DNA of 64,000 bases from an uncultured Clostridia bacterium (GCA_949538735.1 CATGLK010000011.1:766-64765); one strand, 5' to 3'. Positions 2-57,737 are shown, numbered from the stretch's first letter. The notes: generated by a model from the letters alone, not told the origin. Numbers and translations are program-made.

Positions 2-1748
2 GTTGTACTTGACTTTTTCCGAGACCAATTAGATAGAAATGGAGAAGTTGAAACTCTTATACTTAAAATTAATGAATTTTTAAAAACTTATACTGGCAAC
101 CTTGTTCTAAACAACGATGACCCAAATGTTGCAAGACTTCGGACAAGCAAATCCAAATAATCACAATGTTTATTATTTTAGCGTGGAAAAATACGAATAT
201 GCAACAAAAGAATTAAAAGAAGCTGGAGAAGGTAAATTTTGCCCATTCTGCAATACTCGTATAGAATATGAATATTATCAATATTCTCACATTGGTAAGT
301 TCAAATGTCCTAACTGCAATTATGGGGATAATGGAATTTATAAATTAGCTACAAATGTCGATTTAAAAAATAGAACTTTCAGTGTTGATAACGTGGATTA
401 TAAAATTAGGTTCAACAGCATTTACAATATCTACAACTTTATTGCTGTTATATCTTGTGTAAGTTTATATAATATTGAAACAGAAACTGTACAAAAAGCT
501 TTATCAACATTTGTTTTGAATAATGGTAGATTAGAAGAATTAGAAATAAATGGTGTTCCTACTATAATAAATTTAGCCAAAAATCCAACTGGCTGTAATG
601 TTAGCCTTCGTATTTTAAATGAAGATGCTGACGAAAAAGAATTGTTATTTGTGCTAAATGATAATTTAGCAGATGGTCATGACGTTTCTTGGATTTGGGA
701 TATCAATTTTGATGATTTGAATAATGTTTCAAGAATTGTGACTGCTGGAACAAGAGCTTATGATATAGCAATTAGAATTAAAACATCTGGCTTTGATGCA
801 AGCAAAATTGAGCCTTATTTAGATTTAAAAGAAGCTGTAAAAAATTTCTATAAAACAGATGTAAAAAAATATGTAATAGCAAACTACACAGCACTTCAAC
901 CTACTAGAAAAGAAATTCTTAACTTAGGACCTGTACAAATTGAGAAAAAAGAAGATGTGTCCCAAAATGGACAAAATGTCCAAAAGGAAACGTCCCAAAA
1001 TGTCCTAAAAATATTGTACTTATATCCTGACATCCTAGAATTATATGGAGACTTCGGGAACATTCAAGTACTAAAATATCGTTTAGAGAAACGTGGAATA
1101 GAAGCTATAATAGTTCCTTATTCAATTGGAGATACTCCACCTAACTTCTCTGATTTTGATTTGGTTTTTGCTGGTGGTGGTGCTGACCAAGAACAAGGTA
1201 TTTTGTCTGAGGATTTGCTTAAGTATAAAGAAAGCATTAAGGAAGCAGTTGAAAATGGTGTATTCTTTTTACTAATTTGTGGTGCTTATCAGTTATTTGG
1301 AAAATATTATAAAGGTGTTGAAGGAAATATTATTCCTGGTTTAGAAGTTTTTGATTATTATACAGAGGCTATAAATGATAGAAAAAAAAGATGTATTGGT
1401 AATGTTGTTATTAATGCCAATTTGAATAATAAAGAAACTAAAGTTATTGGTTTTGAAAATCATGGTGGACAGACTTTTGATGTTTCTACTTCTTTTGGAA
1501 ATGTACTTGCTGGTAATGGTAATAAGTTTGGCGATAGCAAAGAGGGCTTCTTTGCAAATAATGTTATTGCAACTTATTTACACGGTCCACTACTTTCTAA
1601 AAATCCTGAACTTGCTGATTATATTATAAAATATTGTTTGGATAGAAAATATGGCGAGGATATTGTTTTAGAGCCCTTAGATGATAATTTTGAAAATCTT
1701 TGTCGTGAGCAATTGCTTAAACGTTTTCTAAATGCAGATGAAAAATAA
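2..1748 (+). CDS. murT-gatD: Lipid II isoglutaminyl synthase: MurT (Mur-ligase family, 5' end outside window) read in-frame into glutamine amidotransferase GatD; one frame break near nt 140
   Basis: Frame 2 (2..139) encodes ...GNLVLNNDDPNVARL. After an extra C at 140 the frame-3 ORF continues GQANPNN, a Cys4 ribbon (FCPFC...CPNC) and a DUF1727-like C-terminus. From ~1003, LKILYLYPDILELYGDFGNIQ...LLICGAYQ matches the GatD/CobB-type amidotransferase. There is no stop between the two parts. Confidence 0.75.
953..1007. repeat. C-family intergenic repeat copy C1, lying in-frame between the murT and gatD parts
   Basis: agatgtgtcccaaaatggacaaaatgtccaaaaggaaacgtcccaaaatgtccta recurs almost identically at 7755..7809 and as reverse complement at 33835..33875. 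Confidence 0.8.
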
Positions 1749-1777
1749 AATATACTATTATACTTACAAAAAAATCA

Positions 1778-1808
1778 CCAGAAAGAATATTTTCTTTCTG
1801 GTTTTTTT
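1778..1808. terminator. Bidirectional rho-independent terminator between gatD and the HNH gene
   Basis: Hairpin ccagaaag-aatatttt-ctttctgg followed by a T-run. Confidence 0.6.
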
Positions 1809-1815
1809 ACTCTGT

Positions 1816-2520
1816 CTAATAAAACACTTGCACATTTTCCAAAATAATGACTGGCATTGTTTCTATTTTTTTCTCTCTTTTTCTGTTCCTCTCTTTAGCA
1901 AATCTTAAAGTTTCATAGCCACCAAGCAAATTCATATTTCTATCTACAATAAGTGGTTTCTGAAATCTGTTATACCTACTATAATGATGACTTATGCCTT
2001 CATATTTTTTGCATTTTTTACTTTCTTTGTTTGTATAGTCGATTCTTTTATCTGCTCCTTTAATCTTGTTTATTGGACACTGCTTAACCCAATAACCATT
2101 TTCATCATCACACAAATAAGAAAAGTTTTTGTCATACCGTAAGTTCTCATTTTCCAAATTACACTTTTTTGCAAATTGGCGACGTCCTTCTTGGCTGCTA
2201 ATTGCTAGATATTCGTCATGTTGCTTCGGCATTAAATTTGTTTTTCTCGAGTTACATTTTTCACAATATGGAATCATATTGTTTGTAATGTCTGGGCCTC
2301 CATAGTCCTGTGGAATTATATGGTCTATTGTTGCTTTACTTCTTGGAATATGACTTCCACAGCAATAGCAACGATCGTTACCATAAATTGCATATGCTAA
2401 TTCCATCATCAATCTTTTAAATTGATATGTATTTTTCATATACAAAATCCCTTCTTCTATAAAAACCACTTTCTCTTGCTCTATATACCGAGTAAAATTT
2501 TCTGGTAATATAATATTCAT
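1816..2520 (-). CDS. Free-standing HNH endonuclease (homing-endonuclease-like)
   Basis: HNH motif CYCCGSHI...IDHIIPQDYGG...NNMIPYCEKCNSRK. It lies directly downstream of nrdD where nrdG is usually found, but lacks the CxxxCxxC activase motif. Confidence 0.7.
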   Translation of the reverse strand: MNIILPENFTRYIEQEKVVFIEEGILYMKNTYQFKRLMMELAYAIYGNDRCYCCGSHIPRSKATIDHIIPQDYGGPDITNNMIPYCEKCNSRKTNLMPKQHDEYLAISSQEGRRQFAKKCNLENENLRYDKNFSYLCDDENGYWVKQCPINKIKGADKRIDYTNKESKKCKKYEGISHHYSRYNRFQKPLIVDRNMNLLGGYETLRFAKERNRKREKKIETMPVIILENVQVFY

Positions 2521-2549
2521 TATATTTACCTCCTATCTGTTATGTTTAC

Positions 2550-2578
2550 ATTATATACTGTATTTATTGACCTGTCAA
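2550..2578 (-). promoter_or_regulatory. Consensus sigma-A promoter for the HNH gene
   Basis: Minus strand reads TTGACA-17 nt-TATAAT, then AGGAGG and ATG at 2520. Confidence 0.55.
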
Positions 2579-2616
2579 CAAATATGTCGAAATATGTCAA
2601 TTTTCCTTCGTTTTTA

Positions 2617-4743
2617 TTACAAATGCATTACCCTTTGTTTTATTTCTTTAGTTTTCCCAACATTCCAAAAATTTTCTCCTAAATATCCGCAAGTCCTTCT
2701 TACTACTGTCATTTTATTATGATCCTTATTTCCACAATTTGGGCATTCCCATTCATTATCTTTGTTTATTAATATTTCTCCGTCAAATCCGCACTCATGG
2801 CAATAATCAGACTTTGTGTTAAATTCTGCATATTGAATATTGTCATATATGAATTTTACAACTGTTTCTAATGCTTCTATGTTTTTGTTCATATTTGGTA
2901 TTTCAATATATGAAATAGAACCACCTGTTGATATCTTTTGGAATTCACTTTCGAAATTTAATTTCGCAAACGCGTCTATTTCTTCTCTAACATCTACGTG
3001 ATATGAATTTGTATAATATCCTTTATCTGTTATATCTTTTATTGTGCCAAATTTTTCTTTGTCAATTCTTGCAAATCTATAACACAAGCTTTCTGCTGGT
3101 GTTCCATATAATGCAAATCCAATATTTGTTTCTTTTTTCCACCTTTGAGTAGCATCTTTTAGATAATTCATTACTTTAAGGGCAAATTCACGTCCTTCTT
3201 CTGTTGTATGTGATACTCCTTTTACTAGTTTAGTAAGCTCATATATTCCTATATATCCAAGTGACATTGTAGAATATCCGCCATATAATAGTTTATCTAT
3301 TTTTTCACCTTTTTTTAATCTTGCTAATGCTCCATATTGCCAGTGAATTGGGCTTATATCTGAACGTGTTCCAAGCAATGCGTAATGTCTACACATTAGT
3401 GCTTCTTTGCAAAGTTCTAATCTTTCATCTAACAATTCCCAAAATTTTTCTTCGTCTCCATCTGCTATAATTCCTATTTGTGGTAGATTGATACTTACTA
3501 CACCTTGATTAAATCTTCCTTCAAATTTGTAGTTTCCATTTTCGTCTTTCCAAGGTGATAAAAAGCTTCTACATCCCATTGGACTAAACACATTGCCTTC
3601 GTAGTTCTCACGCATTTTTTTAGCTGATATATAGTCTGGGTACATCCTTTTGGCTGAACATTTTACTGCAAGCTTTGTTAGATAGTCATATTCTCCACCT
3701 TTTAAATTATTGAATTCATCTAATACATACACAAGTTTTGGGAATGCTGGTGTTACATATACTCCTACTTCGTTTTTTACGCCTTCATATCTTTGATTTA
3801 AGATTTCTTCAATTATCATCGCATTTTCTTTGATATATGGGTCGTCTTTTTCTAAATGCAAAAATAGTGTTACAAATGGAGATTGCCCATTTGTTGTCAT
3901 TAATGTGTTTATTTGATATTGCATTGTTTGTATTCCTGCTTTTAGCTCTGCTTTTACTCTTTCTTGTACTAGTTCCTCTATCATTTCTTTTGATAATTGC
4001 TTTCCGTGTTTTTCTTCAAGTTCTTTTTTGTATTTATCATAGCTTACTCTTAGGTATTTTCCTAAATGTATCATATCTATTGATTGCCCGCCATATTGAT
4101 TACTTGCTACTGTTGCAATTATTTGTGTTGTAACTGTACACGCAACTTGAAAACTTTTTGGACTTTCTATCATTTTTCCATACATTACTGTTCCATTATC
4201 TAACATGTCCCCAATGTTTACTAGACAGCAATTAAATATTGGTTGTACAAAATAATCTGCATCGTGAAAGTGCAAAATTCCGTCTTCGTGTGCTTTTGAT
4301 ATTTTTTCTGGTAATAGCATTCTTTTTGTTAAATCTCTTGATACTTCTCCTGCTATGTAGTCTCTTTGTGTTGATGCTAGCATTGTGTTTTTGTTTGAGT
4401 TTTCTTCTGCTAGTTCTTTGTTTTCGTTTCTTAAAAGGCCTAATATAGATTCGTCTGTTGTGTTTTGTTTTCTTACTAATGCTCTTGTGTATCTATATAC
4501 TATGTATCTTTTTGATAGTTCGTATTTTTGTATTTCCATTAGTTTTTGTTCTATTATGTCTTGTATGTCTTCTACTAGTATTCTTTTTTTGCCCATTTCT
4601 TCAATATAATTTATTATTTCTTTTATTTCTTCTTTTGTGGCTCTTTCTTTTGGCCTTACTTCTTTGTTTGCTTTTTCTATTGCTATTTTGATTTTTTCTC
4701 TGTCAAAGTCTACTACTTGTCCGTTTCTTTTTATGACTTTCAT
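2617..4743 (-). CDS. nrdD: Anaerobic ribonucleoside-triphosphate reductase (class III)
   Basis: 708 aa. C-terminal Zn ribbon CHECG...CPNCG and glycine-radical motif RRTCGYLG. Confidence 0.9.
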   Translation of the reverse strand: MKVIKRNGQVVDFDREKIKIAIEKANKEVRPKERATKEEIKEIINYIEEMGKKRILVEDIQDIIEQKLMEIQKYELSKRYIVYRYTRALVRKQNTTDESILGLLRNENKELAEENSNKNTMLASTQRDYIAGEVSRDLTKRMLLPEKISKAHEDGILHFHDADYFVQPIFNCCLVNIGDMLDNGTVMYGKMIESPKSFQVACTVTTQIIATVASNQYGGQSIDMIHLGKYLRVSYDKYKKELEEKHGKQLSKEMIEELVQERVKAELKAGIQTMQYQINTLMTTNGQSPFVTLFLHLEKDDPYIKENAMIIEEILNQRYEGVKNEVGVYVTPAFPKLVYVLDEFNNLKGGEYDYLTKLAVKCSAKRMYPDYISAKKMRENYEGNVFSPMGCRSFLSPWKDENGNYKFEGRFNQGVVSINLPQIGIIADGDEEKFWELLDERLELCKEALMCRHYALLGTRSDISPIHWQYGALARLKKGEKIDKLLYGGYSTMSLGYIGIYELTKLVKGVSHTTEEGREFALKVMNYLKDATQRWKKETNIGFALYGTPAESLCYRFARIDKEKFGTIKDITDKGYYTNSYHVDVREEIDAFAKLNFESEFQKISTGGSISYIEIPNMNKNIEALETVVKFIYDNIQYAEFNTKSDYCHECGFDGEILINKDNEWECPNCGNKDHNKMTVVRRTCGYLGENFWNVGKTKEIKQRVMHL

Positions 4744-6956: not shown

Positions 6957-7065
6957 GGGTGTTTTTGGGGACAGTCCTTAAAAACACCCTTAATTGAATT
7001 TATTTTTATATTATTTATATTTTTGAAGATTAGGGTGTTTTTTAGGTCTGTCCCCAAAAACACCC
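6957..7065. repeat. B-family palindromic repeat pair (B1a 6957..6989, B1b 7033..7065) in inverted orientation
   Basis: gggtgtttttggggacagtccttaaaaacaccc / gggtgttttttaggtctgtccccaaaaacaccc. Each is a GGGTG...CACCC hairpin. Confidence 0.75.
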
Positions 7066-7072: not shown

Positions 7073-7720
7073 TTATATTAATTTTGGTTTTAATTCTAGG
7101 TAAATTGGTTTTTCGTCTTTTATCCTTGTGCTTACTCCATGTCCCGGATATACTATTGTTTCATCAGGTAATTTCATTAGTTTGCTGGTTATTGAATTCA
7201 TTATATCTTCTCTGCTTGACGTTGGTAAATCGGTTCTTCCCCAAGTTCCCCTAAACAAAGTATCTCCGGAGAATAGACATTTCTCACTTTCACAATATAA
7301 TGATGTACCACCTTTCGTATGCCCTGGTGTGTGAATTACCTTAAATTCTAAATTTCCTAAGTGGATTAAATCTCCACCATCTATTCTAGAATCTGCTTCT
7401 AATTCTATTTTCTCGTCTCTGATGTATGGTGTTAGGTTTATACTTGCATCATTTAACCCTTCTGCATCATCACGATGTATTAGTATTTTTCCACCACATT
7501 TATTCTTTAATTCTGTTACTCCAAATATATGGTCTCCGTGGCAATGTGTCAAATAGATATATTTTAATTTGCCACCTAAAATGTCAATCATCTCTTCTAG
7601 TTTGTCTACATCTCCTGCTGGGTCTATTATCATAATTTCTTTTGATTTTTCATCAAATATTATATAACAATTTGTTGGGTCTCCTACCCAAGTGTCTATT
7701 TTCATTTCTTTTAGTATCAT
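7073..7720 (-). CDS. MBL-fold metallo-hydrolase (glyoxalase II-like)
   Basis: HxHxDH motif THCHGDHIFG. Start at MILKEMK with RBS gaagggg. The upstream ORF extension is repeat-derived. Confidence 0.75.
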   Translation of the reverse strand: MILKEMKIDTWVGDPTNCYIIFDEKSKEIMIIDPAGDVDKLEEMIDILGGKLKYIYLTHCHGDHIFGVTELKNKCGGKILIHRDDAEGLNDASINLTPYIRDEKIELEADSRIDGGDLIHLGNLEFKVIHTPGHTKGGTSLYCESEKCLFSGDTLFRGTWGRTDLPTSSREDIMNSITSKLMKLPDETIVYPGHGVSTRIKDEKPIYLELKPKLI

Positions 7721-7754: not shown

Positions 7755-7809
7755 AGATGTGTCCCAAAATGGACAAAATGTCCAAAAGGAAACGTCCCCA
7801 AATGTCCTA
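7755..7809. repeat. C-family repeat copy C2
   Basis: Near-identical to 953..1007. It sits between the relA stop and the MBL gene start. Confidence 0.8.
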
Positions 7810-10002
7810 TTTTTTCCTATTTACTTCATACACACTGTTTACTTTTCTGATTGCTTTTATTGCTTTGCTTAATTCTGCTAAGTTTTCTATTTCTAGTGTT
7901 ATATCGATTGTTGCAATTTTTTCTTTTGTTACTTTTGTGTTTACGCCTTCTATTTTTGCTTTTGTTGTGCCTATTTCTTTTAGTATATCTAATAATAAAC
8001 CTGTCCTGTCATTTGCACGTACTTCTATGTCTGCATGGTATGCTACTTTTTCTTCTTTATCCCATTCTACGTCTATCATTCTGTTTTCTTCTGATAACAG
8101 GTCTCCTATATTTGTACAGTCTTTTCTGTGTACAGATACTCCTCTTCCTTTTGTGATATATCCTACTATTTCGTCTCCTGGTAGTGGGTTACAACATTTT
8201 GATAGTTTTACTAAGCAGTTGTCTATTCCTTTTACTATTATTCCTGCATTTGATGATTTTGGCTTTTTAGCTTTTGCTGTTGCTAGTTCTTGTATTTTTT
8301 CTTCTATATTTTCTTCTTGATGTTCTTTTCTGTATTCTTGTAGCATTCTAGCTATTACCTTTACTGATGAATTTGCTCCAAAGCCGATTGCAGCATACAT
8401 TTCGTCTAGGTCTTTATATTTGTATTTGTTTAACATTGGTTCTATATATTCTGTTTTAAATAAATCACTATGTAAAAATCCAATTCTTTTTAGTTCTTTT
8501 TCTATTAAGTCTTTTCCTTTTTCGATGTTTTCAGCTTTTTGCTCTTTTTTGAACCAACTTTTTATTTTGTTTTTTGCTGATGAGCTTTTTACAAATTTTA
8601 GCCAATCTCTACTTGGTCCTTTTGAGTTTTCTGATGTTATTATTTCTACTATATCACCTGATTTTAGTGGTGTTAATATTGGCATCATTTTACTGTTTAT
8701 TTTACATCCTGTCATATGATGTCCTATCTCTGCATGTATGCTATATGCAAAGTCTATTGGTGTTGAGCCACTTGGAAGTACTTTTATTGCTCCTTTTGGA
8801 GTAAATACATATACTTCGTCTTCAAATAGTTCTGTTTTTAATGTTTCTAAAAATTCTTGTGGATCTTGCATATCTTTTTGCCATTCTAATGTTTCACGTA
8901 GCCATGCAAGTTTATCTTCTTCTACTTTTACTGATTGTTTCTTGCCAAAATAGCTTGCTTCTTTATATGCCCAGTGTGCTGCTATACCATATTCTGCAAT
9001 TTTATGCATTTCCCATGTACGTATTTGTACTTCAAATGGTGTTCCTTTTTCTCCTAATAATGTTGTGTGTATTGATTGGTACATATTTGGTTTTGGTACT
9101 GCTATGTAGTCTTTAAATCTACCTGGCATTGGGCTGTATAAATCGTGTACTACTCCTAGTGCTGCATAACAGTCTTTTACTGATGTTACTAGTATTCTAA
9201 GTGCAAATAGGTCATATATTTGGTCTAATGTTTTATTGTCTCTTTTCATTTTACGGTAAATACTGTATAAATGTTTTGCTCTACCTGTTACTTCTGCATC
9301 TATTTTTTGTTTTTTAAGTTGTACTCGTATGTCTTGCATTATTTTTTCAATGAATTTTAATCTTTCTTCTCTTTTTTTATTTATTCCTTCTACTAGTTCG
9401 TGGTATTCGTCTGGATATAAATATTTAAATGCTAAGTCTTCTAATTCCCATTTTATAGAATATAATCCTAGTCTATTTGCAAGTGGCGCATATAGTTCCA
9501 TTGTTTCTTTTGAAATTGCAATTTGCCTATCTCTTTTTAAATGTTTCAGGGTTCTCATATTATGAAGTCTATCTGATAATTTTATTAATATGACCCTAAT
9601 GTCCTTTCCCATTGCAAGAAACATTTTTCTATAATCTTCTACTTGTTGTTCTTCAACTGTTGCAAATGCTATTTTTCCTAATTTAGTAACACCTGCTACC
9701 ATATCTGATATTTCTTGTCCAAATTCTCTTTTTATATCATTTTCTGTTGCATCTGTATCTTCTACAACATCATGTAAAAGTGCTGCACAAATTGTGCTCT
9801 CGTCTAGTCCAATATCTGCTAAAATATATGCTACATTTATTGGATGTATTATATATGGTTCTCCTGATTTTCTACGTTGATCACCATGGTGTTCTACTGC
9901 ATATTTGTACGCCTTCTGTATTAATTTTTGATCTACTCTTCTTGAATGTTCTTTTCTTTTCGCAATTATATCTTGTATTGTTATTTCCTTTGTTTCTTGC
10001 AT
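7807..10002 (-). CDS. relA: Bifunctional (p)ppGpp synthetase/hydrolase
   Basis: 731 aa with the HD domain HGDQRRKSGEPYIIHP, a synthetase domain, and TGS/ACT C-terminus. Confidence 0.9.
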   Translation of the reverse strand: MQETKEITIQDIIAKRKEHSRRVDQKLIQKAYKYAVEHHGDQRRKSGEPYIIHPINVAYILADIGLDESTICAALLHDVVEDTDATENDIKREFGQEISDMVAGVTKLGKIAFATVEEQQVEDYRKMFLAMGKDIRVILIKLSDRLHNMRTLKHLKRDRQIAISKETMELYAPLANRLGLYSIKWELEDLAFKYLYPDEYHELVEGINKKREERLKFIEKIMQDIRVQLKKQKIDAEVTGRAKHLYSIYRKMKRDNKTLDQIYDLFALRILVTSVKDCYAALGVVHDLYSPMPGRFKDYIAVPKPNMYQSIHTTLLGEKGTPFEVQIRTWEMHKIAEYGIAAHWAYKEASYFGKKQSVKVEEDKLAWLRETLEWQKDMQDPQEFLETLKTELFEDEVYVFTPKGAIKVLPSGSTPIDFAYSIHAEIGHHMTGCKINSKMMPILTPLKSGDIVEIITSENSKGPSRDWLKFVKSSSAKNKIKSWFKKEQKAENIEKGKDLIEKELKRIGFLHSDLFKTEYIEPMLNKYKYKDLDEMYAAIGFGANSSVKVIARMLQEYRKEHQEENIEEKIQELATAKAKKPKSSNAGIIVKGIDNCLVKLSKCCNPLPGDEIVGYITKGRGVSVHRKDCTNIGDLLSEENRMIDVEWDKEEKVAYHADIEVRANDRTGLLLDILKEIGTTKAKIEGVNTKVTKEKIATIDITLEIENLAELSKAIKAIRKVNSVYEVNRKK

Positions 10003-12097: not shown

Positions 12098-12294
12098 AAT
12101 TTTTTCGCTCCTTTTTTTGTTTTTTCATAGTATATCACTATTTTTATATTTTTTCCATAATATTCAATATTTTTAGTAAAATCTCTTGCATTTTTTTATT
12201 AAAAAATATATACTATATATAGAAAAATAATTCCCCTGTCAATTCGAAGCTTTACGTTTAGTACGCAAAAGGTATATGTAGATTAGATGGGGGA

Positions 12295-13140
12295 TTATTG
12301 ATTTTGTTTATGTTTTGTAAGTTTTTTATAGTACGTAGAATTGCTAGGAATAAATCTCCAATGTCTATATGGTATAGTCCAAGTATTCCAATCGTGTAAT
12401 CCTGTGGAAACTCCTATATTAAAATTTGGATGTACTTCACGTATTCTTTTTAGAATGTGCTTATATAGCTTTTCTTTGGCTATTGTTTTTTTGCCTCTTT
12501 TATTACTATTTGGTAACTTTTCTTTATGAAAATTATTTAATCTAAAATTTACTGAACCCAATATAACATCCATACATTGAAGTATTACATGATTATGTGA
12601 AATCACTTCCGCAATATTTTCTCTAGATATATGAACATTATTTTCTTTAAAGATATTAACATTGTTTAGACCATATACAAAATCTATAAAAGTGTTATTT
12701 CTATTAGGTGTATTTGGCAACTTATCGAAATAAAATCTAACAGAAATATTTTTGTCTTTGTTAGTATTGCTATTTTCAAATCCAAATGCCCATTTTACAA
12801 ATTGATAATATAATAAGTAATATTCATTATCAATTTGATTATCTGTTAAATCGTTTGCAATATAGCATACTGGCTTAAACATTATTCTTATTTTTATATC
12901 ACTTTTCTTGATATAATCAAAAAATAAGTCTATTATTTCAATGTATTTTTGCAGATAATTTTCAGTAACTTTTGACCATTTTATTTCTCCTAATAAATTT
13001 AGTTCTTGTTTTTTTGCGTTTAATTTGTTATTTAATTGATTTATCTTATTTCCGTTTGTAATTGCTCCTCCATAGAAATTACCAAAATACTTCCCTTTTT
13101 TAGCGGATTCATCACAATATATAATATATTCTTCATTCAT
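12295..13140 (-). CDS. DUF3800-like hypothetical protein
   Basis: N-terminal IYCDES...GEIKWSKV pattern resembles DUF3800. No other recognisable domain. Confidence 0.4.
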   Translation of the reverse strand: MNEEYIIYCDESAKKGKYFGNFYGGAITNGNKINQLNNKLNAKKQELNLLGEIKWSKVTENYLQKYIEIIDLFFDYIKKSDIKIRIMFKPVCYIANDLTDNQIDNEYYLLYYQFVKWAFGFENSNTNKDKNISVRFYFDKLPNTPNRNNTFIDFVYGLNNVNIFKENNVHISRENIAEVISHNHVILQCMDVILGSVNFRLNNFHKEKLPNSNKRGKKTIAKEKLYKHILKRIREVHPNFNIGVSTGLHDWNTWTIPYRHWRFIPSNSTYYKKLTKHKQNQ

Positions 13141-17492: not shown

Positions 17493-17521
17493 TTGCCACT
17501 GGGGACGGACCTTTTTGGCAA
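17493..17521. repeat. A-family repeat unit A1
   Basis: ttgccactggggacggacctttttggcaa. Confidence 0.75.
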
Positions 17522-28708: not shown

Positions 28709-30158
28709 TTAATCAGTTGTTACAATTATATTGGGAAAGTTCTCAGAAGACGTACGTACTTCTATATTTGAAGCCTCAAACTGCAACAACTTATCAATTA
28801 TAGTTTGGTCAAAAATTTCTCCTGGAGTAATTAACGGAATCCCTGGCGGATAAACCCAAACATACTCTTTAGAAATTTTATTTCTAACATCTTCTATATT
28901 AATCAATTCCGATTTCTCAGCAAAAATTGCATGGTTTATGCTCATAGCTTTTTCAGGGATATTGACTATATAATCTATTTCGTTAGTTTTTGTATGTTCC
29001 ACTTGATTGTCTATATCTTTCAGAGCTGTAATTAACCTTTTAAAATTTTCTTCACTATCACAAACGCTAGTCATTGCGATAATGTAGTTAATAGAACTCA
29101 TTTCTACTTCAATTTTATATTTATTTCTTAAAATATTTGCCAGTTCTTTTCCTGTAATATTTGTGTTTTTAGTTATTACAACAATTTTTCCTTTGTCATA
29201 TATAAGTTTGTCAGAAACAATATTTCCTAAGATTTTTAATTTCTTAAGACTTTTTGTTTCTTCATAAAATTCCTCTAATCTTTTATTATATTCTTCAAAT
29301 AGCTCTTTTCCTTGATTTTCTAGTATATTTAAGCATTCTTCAATAGAAGACATCAATATATAAGAAGGACTACTTGTTTCAAATATTGCCAATTGAGTTT
29401 CTATTTTCTTCTCGTCTACAAATTCACTATTTATGTGCATAATTGCTGTTTGCGTTAAAGCTGGTAATGTTTTGTGTAAACTTTGTATTACGATATCTGC
29501 TCCTGAATTCAGTGCTTCATATTGTTTTAAATTTTCATCAAAATTAAGATGTGCACCATGTGCTTCATCTACTAATACTGGTATTGAATATTTATGCGCT
29601 ATTTTTGCTATTTCTTTTATGTTGCTAATTACACCTTCATATGTTGGAGATGTTATTACAACAAGCTTTATATCTTGGTTTTGTTCTATTTTAGTTTGAA
29701 TTTCTTCAACAGATATTTCTTCTTCAATTCCATATTGGTTTATATTTGGCTTTAAATAAATTGGTTCTAAAAAGTTTAGCTCAATTGCATTGTACACAGA
29801 TTTATGGCAGTTTCTAGCAACTAGTATTTTGTCTCCGCGGTTTTACCACTGCTCTTATTCCTGCTAAAAGTCCACAAGTACTACCATTTACTAGTATAAA
29901 ACTTTTTGGGACTGTCCCAAAACGTCCGCATTCAAAACTTTTTTGGCCTGTCCCAAAAAGTTTTTGGGCTTTTTCTTGAATTTCTTTTATTACACCTTGT
30001 GAGTTATGTAAGTCGTCAAATCCGTCTATTTCTGTTATATCAATGTTGTATGGTAGTTTACTTCCCAATAATTCTGTGTTTCTTTTATGTCCTGGCATAT
30101 GCATTGGGCAATAGTTTTGTTTATTATAACTTTCTAATTTATTATATAAATTCTCCAT
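28709..30158 (-). CDS. Orn/Lys/Arg decarboxylase family protein (SpeA/YaaO-like, PLP-dependent), with one +1 frame break near 29837 and a 12-aa in-frame insertion
   Basis: HMPGHKRN...ITEIDGFDDLH...FILVNGSTCGLLAGIRAVVKP | GDKILVARNCHKSVYNAIELN...VLVDEAHGAH...SLHKTL. The two ORFs 29814..30158 and 28709..29797 join exactly at a CGG/GGA site. Confidence 0.8.
29888..29923. repeat. 36-nt in-frame insertion carrying the B-family palindrome core
   Basis: aaaactttttgggactgtcccaaaacgtccgcattc contains the perfect palindrome ttttgggac-t-gtcccaaaa. It encodes the extra ECGRFGTVPKSF between FGTGQKSF and ILVNGST, which are contiguous in homologues. Confidence 0.65.
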
Positions 30159-33828: not shown

Positions 33829-33927
33829 TCCATCGGGGACGTTTCCTTTTGGACATTTTTGTCCACTTGGGACACTTCTTTAATTTCATTAGTGATGTTT
33901 TTTTGCTCCGTCCCCAAAAGCATCACT
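33829..33927. repeat. C-family repeat copy C3 (reverse orientation) plus an adjacent palindrome
   Basis: ggggacgtttccttttggacatttttgtccacttgggacac, then agtgatg...ctccgtccccaaaagcatcact. Confidence 0.7.
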
Positions 33928-37797: not shown

Positions 37798-40092
37798 CTA
37801 ATAATTATTTTTCATTTGATTTAATGTATTATTCATATTTGGTGTAAAAGTATTTCTACCTTTATTTCCTCCTGATGTTGGAGGTGTATATGTGTTTGTT
37901 AGCGGATATACCATATTTGATAGTTCTCTAAGTATCTGCATAAATCCTTTAGAATATCCTTTTAATGACAAACTACATTCTATCACATTTTGTAAATATT
38001 TTGCATATATTTCTTCTTCAAAAGGAATTGATATGTATTTTATTAGTGTGTTATCAAATAGTTTTGTCATAAATGACATTGCTGGGTCATTGTAATTCGC
38101 CATACCTGCGATTATTGCTTTTTCAGGTGTTTTTATTCTCACCATTTTATTTAATATAATTCTTAGTTTCTTTTCATCCAAAGCATCTTTTGCTTTTAAA
38201 TTTCTTAAAAATTCTGTTAGCGGTTGTATTGTTAGTATGTCTAATGTTTGTACTAAATATGTTTCTTGTGATTGTTTAAAATATCTAACTGGTGTTTCGA
38301 AATCTGTATCTATTAAAATTAATGTATGATTTTGTAATAGTGTTTCTAATATCTTGTCCGCATTTTCGATTCCTTCATCTTCGTTTGGCACTGATGTATA
38401 CACTGTTAAATTTTTATTTATTTGTATCCCGCTTGCTACTCCTTTTGTCAGGTCATATATACTATGTGTTGCAATTTCTCTTAGTTCTTCTTCATTATTA
38501 GTATATATGTAATATGAGTTTTTATTTCTTGTTGTGTCTAATATTGCTACATTTACTCCTGTTGAAGATAGTAATTCTGCTAGGTTGTTTACTATAAATG
38601 ATGTTCCATTTTTGCTTGTTCCTACAAATGTTACTATTTTTTTGTCTGATGATAGTAAATAAGATAAGTCAACTGTTTCTATGTTCTCTTTTTGTATGCT
38701 ATATTCTTGTCTTACTGGCTCTACTACTGTTCTTACTGGTTCTACTATTTGATGTTCTTCTGGTTTTTGATAATAATTTTGTTCTTCTGGCTCTTCATCA
38801 AATCCTGGTAGCATTGTATTGTTAATTGATTCGTTTTCTTCTTCATCATAGAAACTTGAAACTTTTTCTTCGTTTGAAGGTTCTTCTATTTCTTCAAATC
38901 CAGGTAATACAAAATCGTTATCTTCTTCTACCTTTTCGTCAACCTTTGGTAAAAAGTCTTCAATTGGTTCTTCTGTTTTGTTTTTTGGTGGCCTTCCCGG
39001 CTTCCTCTTTTCCTTCGGAGTTTCTTCCTTCTTGTTTTTCGGTGGCCTTCCTGGCTTTCTCTTTTCCTTTGGAGTTTCTTCCTTCTTGTTTTTTGGTGGC
39101 CTTCCCGGCTTTCTCTTTTCCTTTGGAGTTTCTTCTACCACTTCTGTTTCTTCTATTGAAGTTACTGGTTCTATTTCCTTAATCTCTTCAATTTCGTGTA
39201 CTTTTTCTTCTGAAACTTCTTTTGGTGCCTCTGTCTTCTTTCTAGCTAATTTCTTTTCACTGTTCATATCTATGTTTGTTGGGATTACTACTGATGTTGG
39301 TTTTATTCTTGGTTTATTTGATGACATTAAAAGTTTTTCGCTAGGACCTTGCTTTTCGTCTTCTTTGGTTTTTCTTATTTTATCTGAAACTTTATTGTTG
39401 AATGACATTACTTGTTGATATTTTGGTGACCTTTCTTCCAATACAGCTCTTACATTTAATGGCAAAAATTTGCTTATAATTCTTAGTTGAGTGTCATTGT
39501 ATTGTGCTGCTATATTGTCAAAGCTGTCTACAAATCTGTCTTCATTTTTTCCTAACCTTTTGTAATGTGCTAAAATATTTTGTATTTCCATTTCACTGAC
39601 ATCATTTTCGCTTTCGCTTTGATAGCTTACATTTTCAGCGTCTATTTTGTAGTATGCTTTTGCTTCTTTTTTTAGACGTGGTCTGTTTATCAATTTACAT
39701 ACTTCGTCAACACTTCTGTCTGTTCCTATTATTGCATTATATACACCTATTCCAAATATTTTTACTAGCATTTCTTCTGATTTTGTTCTTCTATCAGAAC
39801 ATATTAAAATTATTGGAATGTCATTTCCACGCATATTTGAAGCTTCATCACTTATACTGTCTAATTTTTCAAATATGAATTTGTCAATTTGGTCGTATTG
39901 TGTGTGTGTGAATGCTTCTAAGTCTTCACTTATTACTATTCTATCGTAATTTTTGTCTTTTTGTATTTCTTTCAATATTGCGTTAAAGTAATATACGTTT
40001 TTGTATGAAATGATTTGTTTGTATTCTTTTTGATATTTTTTTACAATTAATTCTGATATTTCTTCATTACTTACAGCAAATAGAACTTTCAT
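37798..40092 (-). CDS. TadZ/CpaE-like protein: receiver-like N-domain, three AT-hook repeats, degenerate MinD/ParA-like C-domain
   Basis: MKVLFAVSNEEISELIV... then TPKEKRKPGRPPKNKKEE three times, then ...VGTSKNGTS... (deviant Walker A). 764 aa. Confidence 0.5.
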   Translation of the reverse strand: MKVLFAVSNEEISELIVKKYQKEYKQIISYKNVYYFNAILKEIQKDKNYDRIVISEDLEAFTHTQYDQIDKFIFEKLDSISDEASNMRGNDIPIILICSDRRTKSEEMLVKIFGIGVYNAIIGTDRSVDEVCKLINRPRLKKEAKAYYKIDAENVSYQSESENDVSEMEIQNILAHYKRLGKNEDRFVDSFDNIAAQYNDTQLRIISKFLPLNVRAVLEERSPKYQQVMSFNNKVSDKIRKTKEDEKQGPSEKLLMSSNKPRIKPTSVVIPTNIDMNSEKKLARKKTEAPKEVSEEKVHEIEEIKEIEPVTSIEETEVVEETPKEKRKPGRPPKNKKEETPKEKRKPGRPPKNKKEETPKEKRKPGRPPKNKTEEPIEDFLPKVDEKVEEDNDFVLPGFEEIEEPSNEEKVSSFYDEEENESINNTMLPGFDEEPEEQNYYQKPEEHQIVEPVRTVVEPVRQEYSIQKENIETVDLSYLLSSDKKIVTFVGTSKNGTSFIVNNLAELLSSTGVNVAILDTTRNKNSYYIYTNNEEELREIATHSIYDLTKGVASGIQINKNLTVYTSVPNEDEGIENADKILETLLQNHTLILIDTDFETPVRYFKQSQETYLVQTLDILTIQPLTEFLRNLKAKDALDEKKLRIILNKMVRIKTPEKAIIAGMANYNDPAMSFMTKLFDNTLIKYISIPFEEEIYAKYLQNVIECSLSLKGYSKGFMQILRELSNMVYPLTNTYTPPTSGGNKGRNTFTPNMNNTLNQMKNNY
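38984..39145. repeat. Three near-perfect 57-bp tandem direct repeats inside the TadZ-like gene
   Basis: ggtggccttcc(c/t)ggctt(c/t)ctcttttcctt(c/t)ggagtttcttccttcttgtttt three times. Encodes the AT-hook copies. Confidence 0.8.
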
Positions 40093-41919: not shown

Positions 41920-41981
41920 TTGCCATTAGGGACGGACCTTTTTGGCAATAAATTGTCAAAAAGGTCCGTCCCCAGTGGCAA
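41920..41981. repeat. A-family repeat pair A2 (inverted) in the 5' UTR of the 41994 gene
   Basis: ttgccattagggacggacctttttggcaa-taaa-ttgtcaaaaaggtccgtccccagtggcaa. Confidence 0.8.
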
Positions 41982-49642: not shown

Positions 49643-49719
49643 TGGCGACCTGGAACGGGCTCGAACCGTCGACCTCTAGCGTGACAGGCTAGCGTTCTAA
49701 CCAACTGAACTACCGGGCC
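49643..49719 (-). tRNA. tRNA-Asp (GUC)
   Basis: ggcccggtagttcagttggttagaac...cctGTCacg...gcca. Confidence 0.85.
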
Positions 49720-49725
49720 ATAAAA

Positions 49726-51192: not shown

Positions 51193-51264
51193 TAGCAATA
51201 AATTGCCAATAAGGACCGTCCCCAGTGACAATTTATTGCCAAAAAGGTCCGTCCCCGTTGGCAA
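51193..51264. repeat. A-family repeat pair A3 (direct)
   Basis: ttgccaataaggaccgtccccagtgacaa ... ttgccaaaaaggtccgtccccgttggcaa. Confidence 0.8.
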
Positions 51265-52557: not shown

Positions 52558-52559
52558 TA

Positions 52560-53228: not shown

Positions 53229-53271
53229 AAACTCTCACTCCCGTTTATTATTATACTTCTTATTTCTAAAA

Positions 53272-53387
53272 TTGCCAAGAGGGACGGACCTTTTTGGCAA
53301 TAAATTGTCAACGGGGACGGTGCTTTCTGGCAATAAATTGCCAAAAAGGTCCGTCCCCAGTGGCAAAAAAGTCTGTCTCCAATGGCA
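53272..53387. repeat. A-family repeat cluster A4 (four units, mixed orientation) between the response regulator and the permease
   Basis: ttgccaagagggacggacctttttggcaa / ttgtcaacggggacggtgctttctggcaa / ttgccaaaaaggtccgtccccagtggcaa / degenerate fourth unit. Confidence 0.8.
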
Positions 53388-53391
53388 TGCT

Positions 53392-55965: not shown

Positions 55966-55977
55966 TTTGCACCTCCT

Positions 55978-56641
55978 TTAAACAATTTTTCCGTCTTCAA
56001 TTTTGATAATTCTATCCGCAATTTTTGCAATTTCCATATTGTGTGTAATCATTATAATAGTTTGTTTATAATCTCTATTTGACTTTTTTAACAGTTCCAC
56101 AATCTCGCTACTTGCCTTACTATCTAAGTTTCCTGTTGGCTCATCTGCCAATATTATTGCAGGATTAGTTATCATAGCCCTTCCTATTGATGTCCTTTGT
56201 TGTTGCCCACCTGATAATTCATTTGGCAAATGATTTTTTCTTTGCTCCAAACCTAGTAGTTTTAACATCTCACTTAACTTTTGCTTATTAACTGGTCTAT
56301 TATCTAGATCTAATGGCAAAGTTATATTCTCTTCAACATTTAAAATAGGTATCAAATTATAAAATTGATAAATCAAACCAACTTGCCTTCTTCTAAAAAT
56401 CGCAAGCTCATCATCATTAAACTTGTGAATATCCTTTCCATCAATAAAAACCTTTCCACTTGTAGGCCTATCAACACCACCAATTAAATGCAATAATGTT
56501 GACTTCCCACTACCAGAAGCACCGCACAATCGCAACAAACTCCCCTTTCTCCACTTTAAAAGAAACATTATCCAAAGCCGTAACCTTAGTTGAACCTTTC
56601 CCATAAACTTTACTTAAATTCTCCACTTTCAATATTTCCAT
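55978..56641 (-). CDS. ABC transporter ATP-binding protein, with one +1 frame break near 56524 inside the Walker A motif
   Basis: MEILKVENLSKVYGKGSTKVTALDNVSFKVEKGEFVAIV | GASGSGKSTLLHLIGG ... LSGGQQQR ... ILADEPTGNLD. Confidence 0.8.
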
Positions 56642-56722
56642 TATTTAGACTCCTTCCTTTTCTCTTTCATAATTATACTTTAACACATCAGTTGTGACAA
56701 CTAAGTGACTTTTAAAAAATTA

Positions 56723-56770
56723 TTGCCATTGGGGACGGACCTTTTTGGCAATTTTTTGCCAACAGGGACA
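56723..56770. repeat. A-family repeat A5 upstream of the ABC operon
   Basis: ttgccattggggacggacctttttggcaa + ttttttgccaacagggaca. Confidence 0.75.
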
Positions 56771-56817
56771 CTCCTTCATTCATAAAATTAATTTTTTTTA
56801 ATATATTTTTTATAAAG

Positions 56818-57636
56818 GTGATTATTTTGAAAATTTTCTTATTAACTAAAAAAACGATATTTATTAGTACTTTTATAGCACTTGCTACTATTATAATATT
56901 ACTTTTAATTTTTACATTTAATACTCCTGTTAATTTTGCAGTTGAACTAACTCACAATTGTGTTGTTTCAGATGTTTTTATAGATGAAGTGGCTAATCTT
57001 ACTAAAAAATCTGAAAAAATAGCATATTTGACTTTTGATGACGGGCCAACTACTTCTGTTACTCCAAAAATTTTGGATATTTTAAAAGAAGAAAATGTAA
57101 AAGCTACTTTTTTTGTAATTGGAAAATCTGCTGAAGAACATCCGGAGATTGTAAAACGTGCTTATGATGAAGGTCATTACATTGCTAATCATGGCTATTC
57201 TCACAACAATTCTAAATTGTATAAAAGTCTTGATAGTTTTAAAAATGAGATTGAAAAAACTGATGTGGCTATTGGAAAAGCTATTGGAAAAGATGACTAT
57301 TGTTCTCATGTTTTCAGATTTCCTAATGGCTTTATGTCTCCTAATTATAAGTCAAAAAAGAAAGAAGCTGCTAAACTTCTTTCTGAAATGAATTATACCT
57401 ATATTGATTGGAATTGCTTAAACAATGATTCCATTAAAAAATATAGTTCTAATCAGTTATTAAATAATCTTAAAAAATCGTGCAAAAATAAGAATACCTT
57501 AGTTGTTTTAATGCATGATACAAAAGATGTTAGTAATAGTTCTCTTGTTTTAAAAGATTCTATTTCATATTTAAGGTCACAAGGTTATACATTTAGAAAC
57601 TTTTATTATTTTTTTGAGGACAAAGGCGGACGTTAA
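56818..57636 (+). CDS. Polysaccharide deacetylase (NodB-type)
   Basis: YLTFDDGP motif and His ligands. Confidence 0.8.
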   Translation: MIILKIFLLTKKTIFISTFIALATIIILLLIFTFNTPVNFAVELTHNCVVSDVFIDEVANLTKKSEKIAYLTFDDGPTTSVTPKILDILKEENVKATFFVIGKSAEEHPEIVKRAYDEGHYIANHGYSHNNSKLYKSLDSFKNEIEKTDVAIGKAIGKDDYCSHVFRFPNGFMSPNYKSKKKEAAKLLSEMNYTYIDWNCLNNDSIKKYSSNQLLNNLKKSCKNKNTLVVLMHDTKDVSNSSLVLKDSISYLRSQGYTFRNFYYFFEDKGGR

Positions 57637-57704
57637 TAACATTGTCTCTGTTTAAAACATTGTAAAGTCTGCGTATTTGTTCGTCATTAAAAAGTGGTTA
57701 ATAT

Positions 57705-57737
57705 GGGTGTTTTTTAGGACTGTCCCCAAAAACACCC
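57705..57737. repeat. B-family palindromic repeat B2
   Basis: gggtgttttttaggactgtccccaaaaacaccc. Confidence 0.8.

What the first reader, a model, noticed from the sequence alone, without database searches (positions are those of the whole stretch)
953..57737. Superfamily of short palindromic intergenic repeats with a shared GGGGAC/GTCCCC core, in three sub-families
At least 18 copies of 29 to 55-bp repeats occur in the window.
- Family A has the unit TTGCCA-N3-GGGACGGACC-TTTTTGGCAA and its complement. About 10 units lie at 17493, 41920, 51193, 53272 and 56723, as direct or inverted pairs.
- Family B is GGGTGTTTTT-GGGGACAGTCC-TTAAAAACACCC. Copies lie at 6957, 7033 and 57705, with a core copy inside a gene at 29888.
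- Family C is AGATGTGTCCCAAAATGGACAAAATGTCCAAAAGGAAACGTCCC, at 953, 7755 and 33835.
All are intergenic apart from two in-frame intragenic copies. Most sit in promoter or 5' UTR regions or between convergent genes. They create spurious N-terminal ORF extensions with the recurring peptide KRSVPSG. They behave like MITE/REP-type elements, plausibly mobilised in trans by a transposase outside this window, and are candidates for regulatory or terminator roles.
Basis: seen in the sequence. Interest (0 to 1): 0.6.

Follow-up and report, generated by a model that had tools for sequence, protein, structure and literature searches.

The report
REP-like hairpin repeats of gut Clostridia
The window is peppered with about 20 short hairpin-forming repeats that share a GGGGAC core, and they appear to be the cognate repeats of a single-copy REP-type tyrosine transposase gene found elsewhere in the same genome, a pairing not yet described for Clostridia.

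Summary
The window (29% GC, an uncultured gut Clostridia genome) holds 11 A units, 4 B units, 3 C elements and an in-frame intragenic pair. All carry the core GGGAC-N-G-N-N-C: 14 matches against 0.08 expected by chance.

The core sits at the top of hairpins whose stems differ between families but stay complementary, with clear covariation. Units lack target-site duplications. Inverted pairs are always GGGGAC-unit first (25 of 25). Unit number differs by 33 or 66 bp from a relative 89% identical over the 7.5 kb compared. No copy was found in phage or plasmid collections.

In related genomes, and on another contig of two assemblies that hold a near-identical copy of the window, a 246-267 aa Y1 HUH transposase lies between dnaB and tilS. 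Its best structural match is the E. coli REP transposase 4ER8. It is flanked by these units, sense upstream and antisense downstream, the latter in-frame inside tilS.

This matches the TIRYT/TIRtron class (RAYT group 1, TnpA-Y1 subclass 2.1), whose repeats share the motif GGGGWSAS.

Mobilisation is inferred, not shown. Orientation statistics suggest that many copies also act as terminator-like 3' hairpins.

The parts
17493..17521 (+). A unit (A1), TTGCCACTGGGGACGGACCTTTTTGGCAA. It lies 13 nt after the stop of the upstream minus-strand gene and is antisense to it.
41920..41981 (.). A2(+) and A3(-), an inverted '+-' dimer with a 4-nt spacer. It folds as a 62-nt hairpin in a divergent region, and its right end abuts the ribosome-binding site of the gene at 41994.
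   Evidence: (-47 kcal/mol, z = -12)
51203..51264 (-). A4 and A5, a direct pair with a 33-bp period. Both are sense to the minus-strand transcript, and the pair starts 3 nt after the histidine-kinase stop codon.
53272..53387 (.). A four-unit cluster: A6(+), A7(+), A8(-) and a degenerate A9(-). The relative L065 has only the outer pair, so the window carries an extra 66 bp (two units).
56723..56777 (+). A10, a full unit, plus A11, a partial unit with core GGGACACTCC. The same composite lies upstream of the Y1 transposase gene in L109-L114 and L119. L065 has one extra inverted unit here (33 bp).
6957..7065 (.). B1(+) and B2(-), an inverted pair separated by 41 nt. On the minus-strand transcript B2 is the sense unit and starts 7 nt after the stop codon at 7073.
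57705..57737 (-). B3 unit between convergent genes. It starts 3 nt after the antitoxin gene's stop codon (sense to that gene), and TTTTT follows it on the plus strand.
33893..33926 (-). B-like unit GTGATGCTTTTGGGGACGGAGCAAAAAAACATCA. Its left arm contains the TGA stop codon of the gene at 33923-34825.
33835..33879 (+). Family C element (GGGGACGTTTCC - TGGACA/TGTCCA hairpin - GGGACAC). It forms a '+-' arrangement with the B-like unit next to it.
7755..7809 (-). Family C element, sense to the minus-strand transcript. Its first three bases are the TAG stop codon of the gene at 7807-10002.
953..1007 (-). Family C element in frame inside ORF 117-1748. It encodes the linker (about residues 280-297) between the MurT_C domain (153-260) and the GATase_3/GatD domain (298-496).
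29898..29964 (-). Two units in frame inside an Orn/Lys/Arg decarboxylase gene. On the plus strand they read AAAACTTTTT-GGGACTGTCCC-AAAACG (palindromic core) and AAAACTTTTTTGGCCTGTCCCAAAAAGTTTT (core GGGACAGGCC on the minus strand). They encode GTGQKSFECGRFGTVPK.

Best explanation
These are REP-like hairpin repeats belonging to a REP-associated-type tyrosine (Y1, HUH) transposase system of the TIRYT/TIRtron kind (RAYT group 1, TnpA-Y1 subclass 2.1).

Each unit is a 29-33 nt imperfect palindrome. It presents a conserved G-rich motif, GGGGAC(N)G, near the tip of a hairpin. The stem sequence may vary as long as it still pairs.

A single-copy, vertically inherited Y1 enzyme is encoded between dnaB and tilS, outside this window, and is itself bracketed by the units. 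It is inferred to bind the folded single strand, cut near the motif, and copy or rearrange units. That would produce singletons, head-to-head dimers and 33-bp-period arrays without target-site duplications.

Selection then keeps copies where they do no harm or are useful. In the GGGGAC (sense) orientation the RNA hairpin is more stable and is followed by a T-rich tail. Copies accumulate right after stop codons, where they probably act as terminator or 3'-end-stabilising hairpins.

Shown: repeat anatomy, covariation, orientation rules, unit-number polymorphism, absence from phage and plasmid collections, and the association with the Y1 gene.

Inferred: catalysis on these hairpins, the single-strand intermediate, and the terminator role.
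For: Repeats and statistics.

The same core occurs in hairpins with at least 10 unrelated stems. 206 cores have a perfect flanking stem of at least 5 bp and 188 have at least 6 bp; four control 10-mers together gave 2 with at least 6 bp.

Stem covariation: at hexamer position 4 the pair is C-G 34 times and T-A 29 times, with 4 unpaired; 0 of 500 shuffles reach the observed covariation score.

Distribution: more than 100 hits in Clostridia genomes assembled from metagenomes, spanning 25-53% GC.

No target-site duplications. Inverted dimers are 25 of 25 in '+-' order.

Unit number differs by 33 or 66 bp from the relative L065, which is 89% identical over the 7.5 kb compared.

Zero exact matches in 2.9 million viral contigs for A, B and C patterns. 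The A2-A3 dimer also found no match in the phage or plasmid collections.

Y1 gene:
- Pfam Y1_Tnp 3e-9.
- NCBIfam REP_Tyr_transpos 6e-18 against IS200 at 0.006.
- Invariant N-H-x-H and Y-I-H-x-N-P motifs.
- The only PDB sequence hit and the best fold hit is 4ER8, the E. coli REP transposase bound to a REP hairpin.
- Conserved synteny rplI-dnaB-Y1-tilS-ftsH down to 46% identity.
- All eight lineages have a sense unit within 160 nt upstream, and an antisense unit downstream, overlapping the 3' end, or inside tilS.
- The P0049 locus occurs in JGI Ga0137297 and ENA ERZ27241790, the two assemblies that also hold the near-identical window contig.

Literature: TIRYT genes are flanked by inverted repeats sharing GGGGWSAS, some forming repeat families in dimers or clusters (PMC3733652). 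These genes correspond to subclass 2.1, with NHVH, Y[IV]HLNP and a C-terminal HTH (PMC6006769).

Orientation: within -15 to +25 nt of stop codons, 66 units are sense and 21 antisense (p = 1e-6). Just upstream of start codons, 16 are antisense and 5 sense. The sense RNA fold averages -13.6 against -10.3 kcal/mol and is more stable in 63 of 68 units.
Against: - No transposase lies in the window itself. That the Y1 contig belongs to the same genome rests on co-occurrence in two assemblies, not on a closed genome.
- Classical REPs carry a 5' GTAG head; these do not.
- The Y1 protein scores below NCBI's RAYT equivalog cut-off (65 against 80 bits).
- No activity of any group-1/TIRYT enzyme on repeats has been shown, and Quentin et al. 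found no REP-like hairpins for subclass 2.1.
- The observed unit-number differences could come from recombination or slippage between units rather than transposition.
- The unit sequence is unusually constant across very different genomes, whereas classical REPs are species-specific.
- The simple terminator scan did not call any unit, and B units lack a T-tail in the sense orientation.
Confidence: 0.75

Rival explanations
1. The units are purely functional RNA hairpins, meaning intrinsic terminators or binding sites for an RNA-binding protein. They would be conserved by selection and would not be mobile. The Y1 gene's neighbours would then simply be two more copies.
For: Sense units cluster a median of 8 nt after stop codons: 29 of 36 singletons lie within 20 nt. 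Near stops there are 66 sense against 21 antisense units. The right flank is 60-76% T. The sense RNA fold is more stable in 63 of 68 units. At the equivalent position downstream of the deacetylase gene, one relative has an ordinary hairpin instead.
Against: Overall orientation in co-directional regions is 55 sense to 50 antisense. Copies also occur in divergent promoter regions and in frame inside genes. Ordinary terminators do not need a conserved 10-nt core. No Rfam family matches. The simple terminator scan called none of them. Unit number changes by whole units between close relatives. The sense-upstream, antisense-downstream bracket around the Y1 gene is kept in eight lineages with different neighbours.
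Confidence: 0.1
2. The palindromic core GGGAC-N-GTCCC is a double-stranded binding site for an abundant DNA-binding protein, such as a nucleoid-associated protein or a global regulator. The hairpin potential would be incidental.
For: B-type and several other cores are perfect dyads. Family C carries GGAC/GTCC motifs about 10 bp apart.
Against: The commonest core, GGGACGGACC, is not a dyad (70 of 188 cores with a stem of at least 6 bp). Flanking arms of unrelated sequence covary to keep pairing, which a duplex binding site does not require. The strict '+-' rule for dimers and the REPtron-like bracket of the Y1 gene are left unexplained.
Confidence: 0.06
3. They are classical MITEs: internally deleted insertion sequences with terminal inverted repeats, moved by a DDE transposase.
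For: Inverted terminal arms are present. A composite of about 300 bp bounded by two units exists in L038 and L023.
Against: Units are only 29-33 bp long. Flanking direct repeats occur at chance level. No DDE transposase recurs in 800 kb of unit-containing loci. The associated enzyme is a Y1 HUH protein.
Confidence: 0.03
4. The matches are chance or low-complexity similarity in an AT-rich genome.
For: None beyond the AT-rich stems.
Against: The core occurs 14 times against 0.08 expected, and the 44-nt family C sequence recurs exactly. The exact 29-nt pattern recurs in more than 100 loci of other genomes.
Confidence: 0.01

Closest known systems
TIRtrons and TIRYTs (Di Nocera, De Gregorio and Rocco 2013, PMC3733652), equivalent to TnpA-Y1 subclass 2.1 (Quentin et al. 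2018, PMC6006769) and RAYT group 1 (Bertels et al. 2017, PMC5581495)
   Same: The Y1 protein is about 240-270 aa with NH(V/A)H and YIHxNP motifs and a C-terminal helical HTH-like tail. The gene is bracketed by inverted repeats carrying a GGGG(A/T)(C/G)A(C/G)-type motif; here GGGGACAC and GGGGACAG fit and GGGGACGG is a near fit. The repeats also occur elsewhere in the genome as singles, dimers and clusters. The gene is low-copy and vertically inherited.
   Different: It is not described for Clostridia in the papers found and read here. Here the motif sits at the top of short self-complementary hairpins with many alternative stems, whereas Quentin et al. reported finding no REP-like hairpins for this subclass. 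Local density is high, about 20 units in 64 kb. The gene has a fixed position between dnaB and tilS, with one flanking unit in frame inside tilS.
Classical REP/BIME/REPIN elements with RAYT (E. coli TnpA-REP, PDB 4ER8; Pseudomonas REPINs)
   Same: Both are short, extragenic, imperfect palindromes in high copy, forming inverted dimers and arrays, preferentially downstream of genes, without target-site duplications. Both have a single-copy Y1 HUH gene flanked by the repeats (a REPtron). The best structural match of the protein is 4ER8.
   Different: There is no 5' GTAG/GTGG head; the conserved motif is inside the hairpin. The stems are AT-rich rather than GC-rich. The unit sequence is conserved across genomes of 25-53% GC rather than being species-specific. 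The protein scores below the NCBIfam RAYT cut-off.
Rickettsia palindromic elements (RPE) and intragenic REPs
   Same: Some copies are inserted in frame in protein-coding genes that seem to stay functional: tilS, the murT-gatD linker, the uvrB C-terminus, and the C-terminus of the Y1 gene itself.
   Different: RPEs are CGTC-tagged, 100-150 bp long and have no known dedicated transposase.
IS200/IS605 ends and their miniature derivatives (PATEs)
   Same: Both involve single-strand hairpins recognised by a Y1 HUH enzyme, with no duplications.
   Different: The enzyme here is single-copy and syntenic, not a multi-copy insertion sequence. No tnpB gene is present. NCBIfam scores it as IS200 only at E = 0.006.

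Membership tests
REP/RAYT system (classical) | Short (about 20-40 bp) imperfect palindromes, many copies, mostly extragenic | tested here: met
   Units are 29-33 bp. There are about 20 in 64 kb, and all but the copies at 953 and 29898-29964 are intergenic.
REP/RAYT system (classical) | Conserved unpaired GTAG/GTGG tetranucleotide at the 5' foot of the hairpin | tested here: not met
   No GTAG is present. The left flank is A-rich, and the conserved motif GGGGAC lies inside the hairpin.
REP/RAYT system (classical) | Units organised as inverted dimers or arrays (BIME/REPIN) | tested here: met
   25 of 25 inverted pairs are '+-'. Arrays have a 33-bp period.
REP/RAYT system (classical) | Single-copy Y1 HUH transposase gene bracketed by the repeats in inverted orientation (REPtron) | tested here: met
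   This holds in eight lineages, including the locus L119/L112 from the assemblies that hold the near-identical window contig. No such gene lies in the window itself.
REP/RAYT system (classical) | Protein reaches NCBIfam REP_Tyr_transpos equivalog score | tested here: not met
   The score is 60-66 bits against a cut-off of 80. It is still the best family by far.
REP/RAYT system (classical) | Enzyme binds and cleaves the repeat; repeats are mobile | not testable with these tools
   Only indirect evidence exists: whole-unit presence or absence against L065.
TIRtron/TIRYT (TnpA-Y1 subclass 2.1, RAYT group 1) | HUH motif NH(V/Y/F)H, tyrosine motif Y(I/V)HLNP-like, length about 240 aa, C-terminal HTH-type extension | tested here: met
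   Invariant N58-H59-x-H61 and Y119-I120-H121-x-N123-P124. Length is 246-267 aa. A conserved ISYRxMEKxLGISRETLRKL helical tail has pLDDT around 90. Pfam did not call Bac_DnaA_C for it.
TIRtron/TIRYT (TnpA-Y1 subclass 2.1, RAYT group 1) | Gene flanked by inverted repeats that share the motif GGGGWSAS | tested here: met
   The upstream partial unit reads GGGGACAC (or GGGACAC). B units read GGGGACAG. A units read GGGGACGG, one position off. One lineage (L115) uses GGTTCCGGGTT instead.
TIRtron/TIRYT (TnpA-Y1 subclass 2.1, RAYT group 1) | Flanking repeats are members of a dispersed repeat family in the same genome | tested here: met
   The unit upstream of the P0049 gene is identical to window units A1 and A8.
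MITE (DDE-type) | Terminal inverted repeats plus target-site duplication, usually 70-300 bp | tested here: not met
   Flanking direct repeats occur at chance level, and units are 29-33 bp.
Intrinsic (Rho-independent) terminator | Stable stem-loop followed directly by a U-tract, at gene 3' ends, in the sense orientation | tested here: inconclusive
   For: position, orientation and a T-rich tail for A units. Against: the consensus scan called none, the apical region is long, and B units lack a sense-strand T-tail.
Any curated RNA family (Rfam 15) | Match at the gathering score | tested here: not met
   No hit on any unit. Only sub-threshold generic miRNA-hairpin matches appeared.

The most novel reading that the evidence does not exclude
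This would be the first hairpin (REP-like) repertoire assigned to the RAYT group-1/TIRYT lineage, and the first such system described in Clostridia.

- The enzyme's recognition motif is displayed at the apex of hairpins whose stems are free to vary.
- The enzyme gene is fixed between dnaB and tilS, with one 'end' living in frame inside tilS. That implies an old, domesticated, vertically inherited partnership.
- The hairpins have been co-opted as orientation-dependent transcription terminators across many gut Clostridia.
Probability: 0.4. Interest if true: 0.65.

Novelty: new member of a known kind. Interest (0 to 1): 0.5.

Why it matters
The role of RAYT group-1/TIRYT enzymes is unresolved. 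It is the second-largest TnpA-Y1 subclass and is found in about 15% of strains (PMC6006769). A systematic study found no hairpin partner for it.

Here the partner is abundant, sharply defined and conserved across many uncultured gut Clostridia. That gives a concrete substrate for biochemistry: which strand is bound, where it is cut, and what the GGGGAC motif does.

Practically, these repeats:
- break metagenome assemblies, since many Y1 contigs are only 1-2 kb long;
- create false N-terminal ORF extensions and in-frame peptide inserts (KRSVPSG, NCQKGPSPMA) that contaminate protein databases;
- probably mark transcript 3' ends.

Tried and rejected
- **Outward-facing promoter idea.** The arms contain the TTGACA/TTGGCA -35 hexamer, and A6 pairs with a TATAAT at 17 nt spacing. 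Across 128 units there is no enrichment of -10 boxes at 16-18 nt, so this is rejected as a general function.
- **Sigma-54 promoter at unit junctions** (TGGCAA-N4-TTGC). The spacing is one base short by inspection, so this was dropped.
- **CRISPR-like array.** There are no spacers and the orientation is mixed.
- **Invertible promoters between spaced '+-' pairs.** The spacers are not conserved and hundreds of sites would scramble the genome; this was not pursued.
- **Target-site duplications.** None found.
- **Recurrent neighbouring gene.** All-against-all clustering of 714 ORFs showed only common paralogue families. The Y1 gene was found only after a tblastn search with E. coli RayT.
- **Literature search by sequence strings.** Only irrelevant primer hits. 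'RAYT' plus 'Firmicutes' gave only noise.
- **Close strains** (L001-L004). They show no unit polymorphism; the only differences lie in the tRNA cluster at 49715-49724.
- **First structure job.** It was rerun without that row.

Full report
**Observation.** The window is 28-31% GC, with most genes on the minus strand.

I count:
- 11 family A units, consensus TTG(C/T)CA-NN-GGGGACGG(A/T)(C/T)C-TTTT-TG(G/A)CAA;
- 3 family C elements;
- 2 units in frame inside a decarboxylase gene.

The shared core GGGAC-N-G-N-N-C occurs 14 times against 0.08 expected. Of the 35 GGGAC/GTCCC pentamers in the window, 24 lie in these repeats. Rfam has no family for them, either at gathering score or at permissive E-values.

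**Anatomy.** Each unit is a hairpin: two arms enclose the G-rich core.

The hits are uncultured Clostridia, Lachnospiraceae, Eubacterium and Syntrophomonas genomes assembled from metagenomes, spanning 25-53% GC. In GC-rich genomes the unit reads (G)GTTGTCA-NN-GGGGACGGTTC-TTTT-TGACAAC(C).

Across the window plus these loci:
- 272 cores were found. 206 have a perfect flanking stem of at least 5 bp and 188 have at least 6 bp. Four control 10-mers together gave 2 with at least 6 bp.
- The stems are of many unrelated kinds, including TTGYCA, GGGTGTTTTT, GATGTTTTT, TGAGACA, ATGCTCCGAAAA and TTTTTCATTG.
- Within family A, position 4 of the arm covaries: C-G 34, T-A 29, unpaired 4. The first flanking pair also covaries (G-C 27, A-T 17). 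None of 500 shuffles reaches the observed covariation score.

So the 'superfamily' is real: a constant core displayed on interchangeable but always complementary stems.

Family C has the same parts in another phase: core GGGGACGTTTCC, then a TGGACA/TGTCCA hairpin, then core GGGACAC. It recurs in 14 of the related loci.

**Behaviour.**
- No target-site duplications.
- Inverted pairs are always GGGGAC-unit first, 25 of 25, with spacers from about 0 to about 160 nt and no conserved spacer.
- Compared with a relative 89% identical over the 7.5 kb compared (L065), the cluster at 53272 has two extra units (66 bp). The cluster at 56723 lacks one unit (33 bp). The B unit at 57705 differs and is accompanied by another unit.
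- At the position downstream of the deacetylase gene, three relatives carry a B unit, an A unit, or an ordinary hairpin.
- Exact-pattern scans of 2.9 million viral contigs found no A, B or C copy. BLAST of the A2-A3 dimer against the phage and plasmid collections found nothing.

**The enzyme.** Clustering the ORFs of the 100 loci showed no recurrent neighbour. A tblastn search with E. coli RayT then picked out a 267-aa ORF in L048, and that ORF found relatives in L039, L047 and L010.

The family has the following properties:
- Pfam Y1_Tnp at 3e-9.
- Its best NCBIfam model is REP_Tyr_transpos (6e-18, 65 bits, below the 80-bit cut-off), against 0.006 for IS200.
- Invariant N-H-x-H and Y-I-H-x-N-P motifs, plus a conserved C-terminal helical tail.
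- Its only PDB sequence match and its best fold match is 4ER8, the E. coli REP transposase bound to a REP hairpin. IS608 and ISDra2 TnpA follow.
- 839 homologues exist. Six, down to 46% identity, were looked up, and all sit in the same place: rplI-dnaB-Y1-tilS-ftsH.

In all eight lineages examined the gene is bracketed the same way. One or two sense units lie within 160 nt upstream, usually right after the dnaB stop codon and often as 'full unit + GGGGACAC partial unit'. That is the same composite as window 56723-56777. An antisense unit lies downstream, either overlapping the gene's own 3' end or in frame inside tilS, where it encodes NCQKGPSPMA.

One lineage (P0092, locus L115) keeps the TTGCCA stem but has a different loop, GGTTCCGGGTT, on all three flanking units. 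This hints at enzyme-repeat co-evolution.

**Link to this genome.** The window has no Y1 gene. Contigs 99.97% identical to the window over the 12.7 kb compared occur in JGI 3300010956 (Ga0137297_10109) and ENA ERZ27241790.

The P0049 Y1 locus occurs in exactly those two assemblies, as Ga0137297_10004 and k141_260534. It was the only JGI hit. Its upstream unit, TTGCCACTGGGGACGGACCTTTTTGGCAA, is identical to window units A1 and A8.

Co-occurrence in two assemblies is strong evidence for a shared genome, but it is not proof.

**Comparison with what is known.** Di Nocera et al. (PMC3733652) described RAYT-like 'TIRYT' genes. Instead of GTAG REPs, these are flanked by inverted repeats sharing GGGGWSAS, and some of those repeats form moderately abundant families arranged as dimers or clusters. 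No Firmicutes appear in that paper.

Quentin et al. (PMC6006769) place TIRYTs in TnpA-Y1 subclass 2.1. That subclass has NHVH and Y[IV]HLNP motifs, a median length of 238 aa and a C-terminal DnaA_C/HTH tail, and it equals Bertels' RAYT group 1. They state that no REP-like hairpins were found near those genes. Bertels et al. note that group 1 also occurs in Clostridia (PMC5581495).

The present units fit this class: GGGGACAC and GGGGACAG match GGGGWSAS, and GGGGACGG is one base off. They add a clear hairpin context, many stem variants, high local density and a Clostridial host.

They fail the defining GTAG feature of classical REPs. I therefore file them as a new member of the TIRYT/TIRtron kind that works like a REP/RAYT system.

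**Function of the copies.**
- The overall sense-to-antisense ratio between co-directional genes is 55 to 50.
- Position depends on orientation. Sense singletons lie a median of 8 nt after the upstream stop codon, with 29 of 36 within 20 nt, and some supply the stop codon themselves. Antisense singletons are spread out, with a median of 69 nt.
- Counting all units, 66 sense against 21 antisense start within -15 to +25 nt of a stop (p = 1e-6). Just upstream of start codons, 16 are antisense and 5 sense.
- The sense RNA folds better because of G-U pairs: -13.6 against -10.3 kcal/mol, more stable in 63 of 68 units. The right flank is 60-76% T.
- In the window, six of the seven clusters that follow a gene's 3' end begin with a sense unit 0-7 nt after, or overlapping, the stop codon. 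A1 is the exception.

This pattern is what one expects if the sense orientation terminates or stabilises transcripts and is therefore favoured after genes and avoided before them.

It remains an inference. The consensus terminator scan called none of the units, and B units have no sense-strand T-tail.

The idea that the arms act as mobile -35 boxes was tested and rejected.

**In-frame copies.** The family C element at 953-1007 encodes the linker between the MurT_C and GatD (GATase_3) domains of a single ORF. From general knowledge, murT and gatD are normally two separate genes.

The decarboxylase copies insert GTGQKSFECGRFGTVPK and the frame continues after them. The gene is split 20 codons later for an unrelated reason.

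Similar in-frame copies occur in tilS, at the C-terminus of uvrB (L010), and at the C-terminus of the Y1 protein itself (L039, L115).

**Verdict.** It is best described as the REP-like repeat population of a TIRYT-type tyrosine transposase in gut Clostridia. Mobilisation and the terminator role are inferred. Interest is moderate.

Noticed in passing
window 117-1748: MurT_C and GatD (GATase_3) domains are read as one continuous ORF, with the family C repeat as the in-frame linker. From general knowledge these are normally two genes. This could be a repeat-mediated gene fusion, or a missed internal start.
   Followed up: partly
window 28709-30158 (-): An Orn/Lys/Arg decarboxylase gene is split into ORFs of 114 aa and 362 aa about 20 codons after the in-frame repeat insertion. 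This is either a pseudogene or an assembly frameshift.
   Followed up: partly
L048 762-790; L109 about 3916-3997; L117 about 3447-3478; L115 about 3450: tilS, the gene downstream of the Y1 transposase, carries one or two units in frame (peptide NCQKGPSPMA) in five Y1 lineages (L048, L109-L114/L119, L115-L116, L117-L118) and in L005. This looks like an old, tolerated insertion in an essential gene.
   Followed up: partly
window 12230-12296 (+): Rfam DUF3800-VIII RNA motif (49 bits against a gathering score of 40.2). It abuts the 3' end of a DUF3800 gene (12295-13140, minus strand) and lies on the opposite strand.
   Followed up: partly
window 38968-39135: Three tandem 54-nt repeats (88-92% identical) lie inside a 764-aa ORF (37798-40092, minus strand) that has no Pfam match.
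   Followed up: no
L038 639-943; L023 4104-4401; L038 5826-6133: An imperfectly palindromic composite of about 300 bp is bounded by a '+' and a '-' unit. It is 90% identical between two genomes, and its inner 140 bp is reused in a third copy with different ends. No Rfam match.
   Followed up: partly
L115/L116 2353, 3239 and about 3450; L060 4438; L095 about 1640: A sub-family has the usual TTGCCA/TGGCAA stem but a different loop, GG(T/A)TCC(G/A)GGTT. It is the type flanking the P0092 Y1 gene. The same locus also has GGGGTCGGGTC-loop hairpins at 305 and 398.
   Followed up: partly
window 53250-53278 (-): The left arm of unit A6, read on the opposite strand, gives TTGGCA. With a TATAAT 17 nt away it makes an 11-of-12 promoter match in front of the response-regulator gene. 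This is an individual case and not a general property of the units.
   Followed up: yes
window 62056-62120 and 63703-63767: A 65-nt direct repeat (80% identical) occurs in two intergenic regions near the tRNA-Asn/5S rRNA end of the window. It is unrelated to the GGGGAC repeats.
   Followed up: no
upstream of Y1 genes: L109 about 2920-3000; L106 about 2920-3000; L010 about 7850-7900: Between the flanking unit and the Y1 start codon lies a conserved small hairpin, ATGTTTTT(T)-G-rich loop-AAAACAT. It resembles a B-type unit and could be an autoregulatory site.
   Followed up: no
table: For about 78 of the 120 listed Y1 homologues the longest contig carrying the gene is under 5 kb, and for many only 1-2 kb. 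This suggests that assemblies break at the flanking repeats.
   Followed up: no
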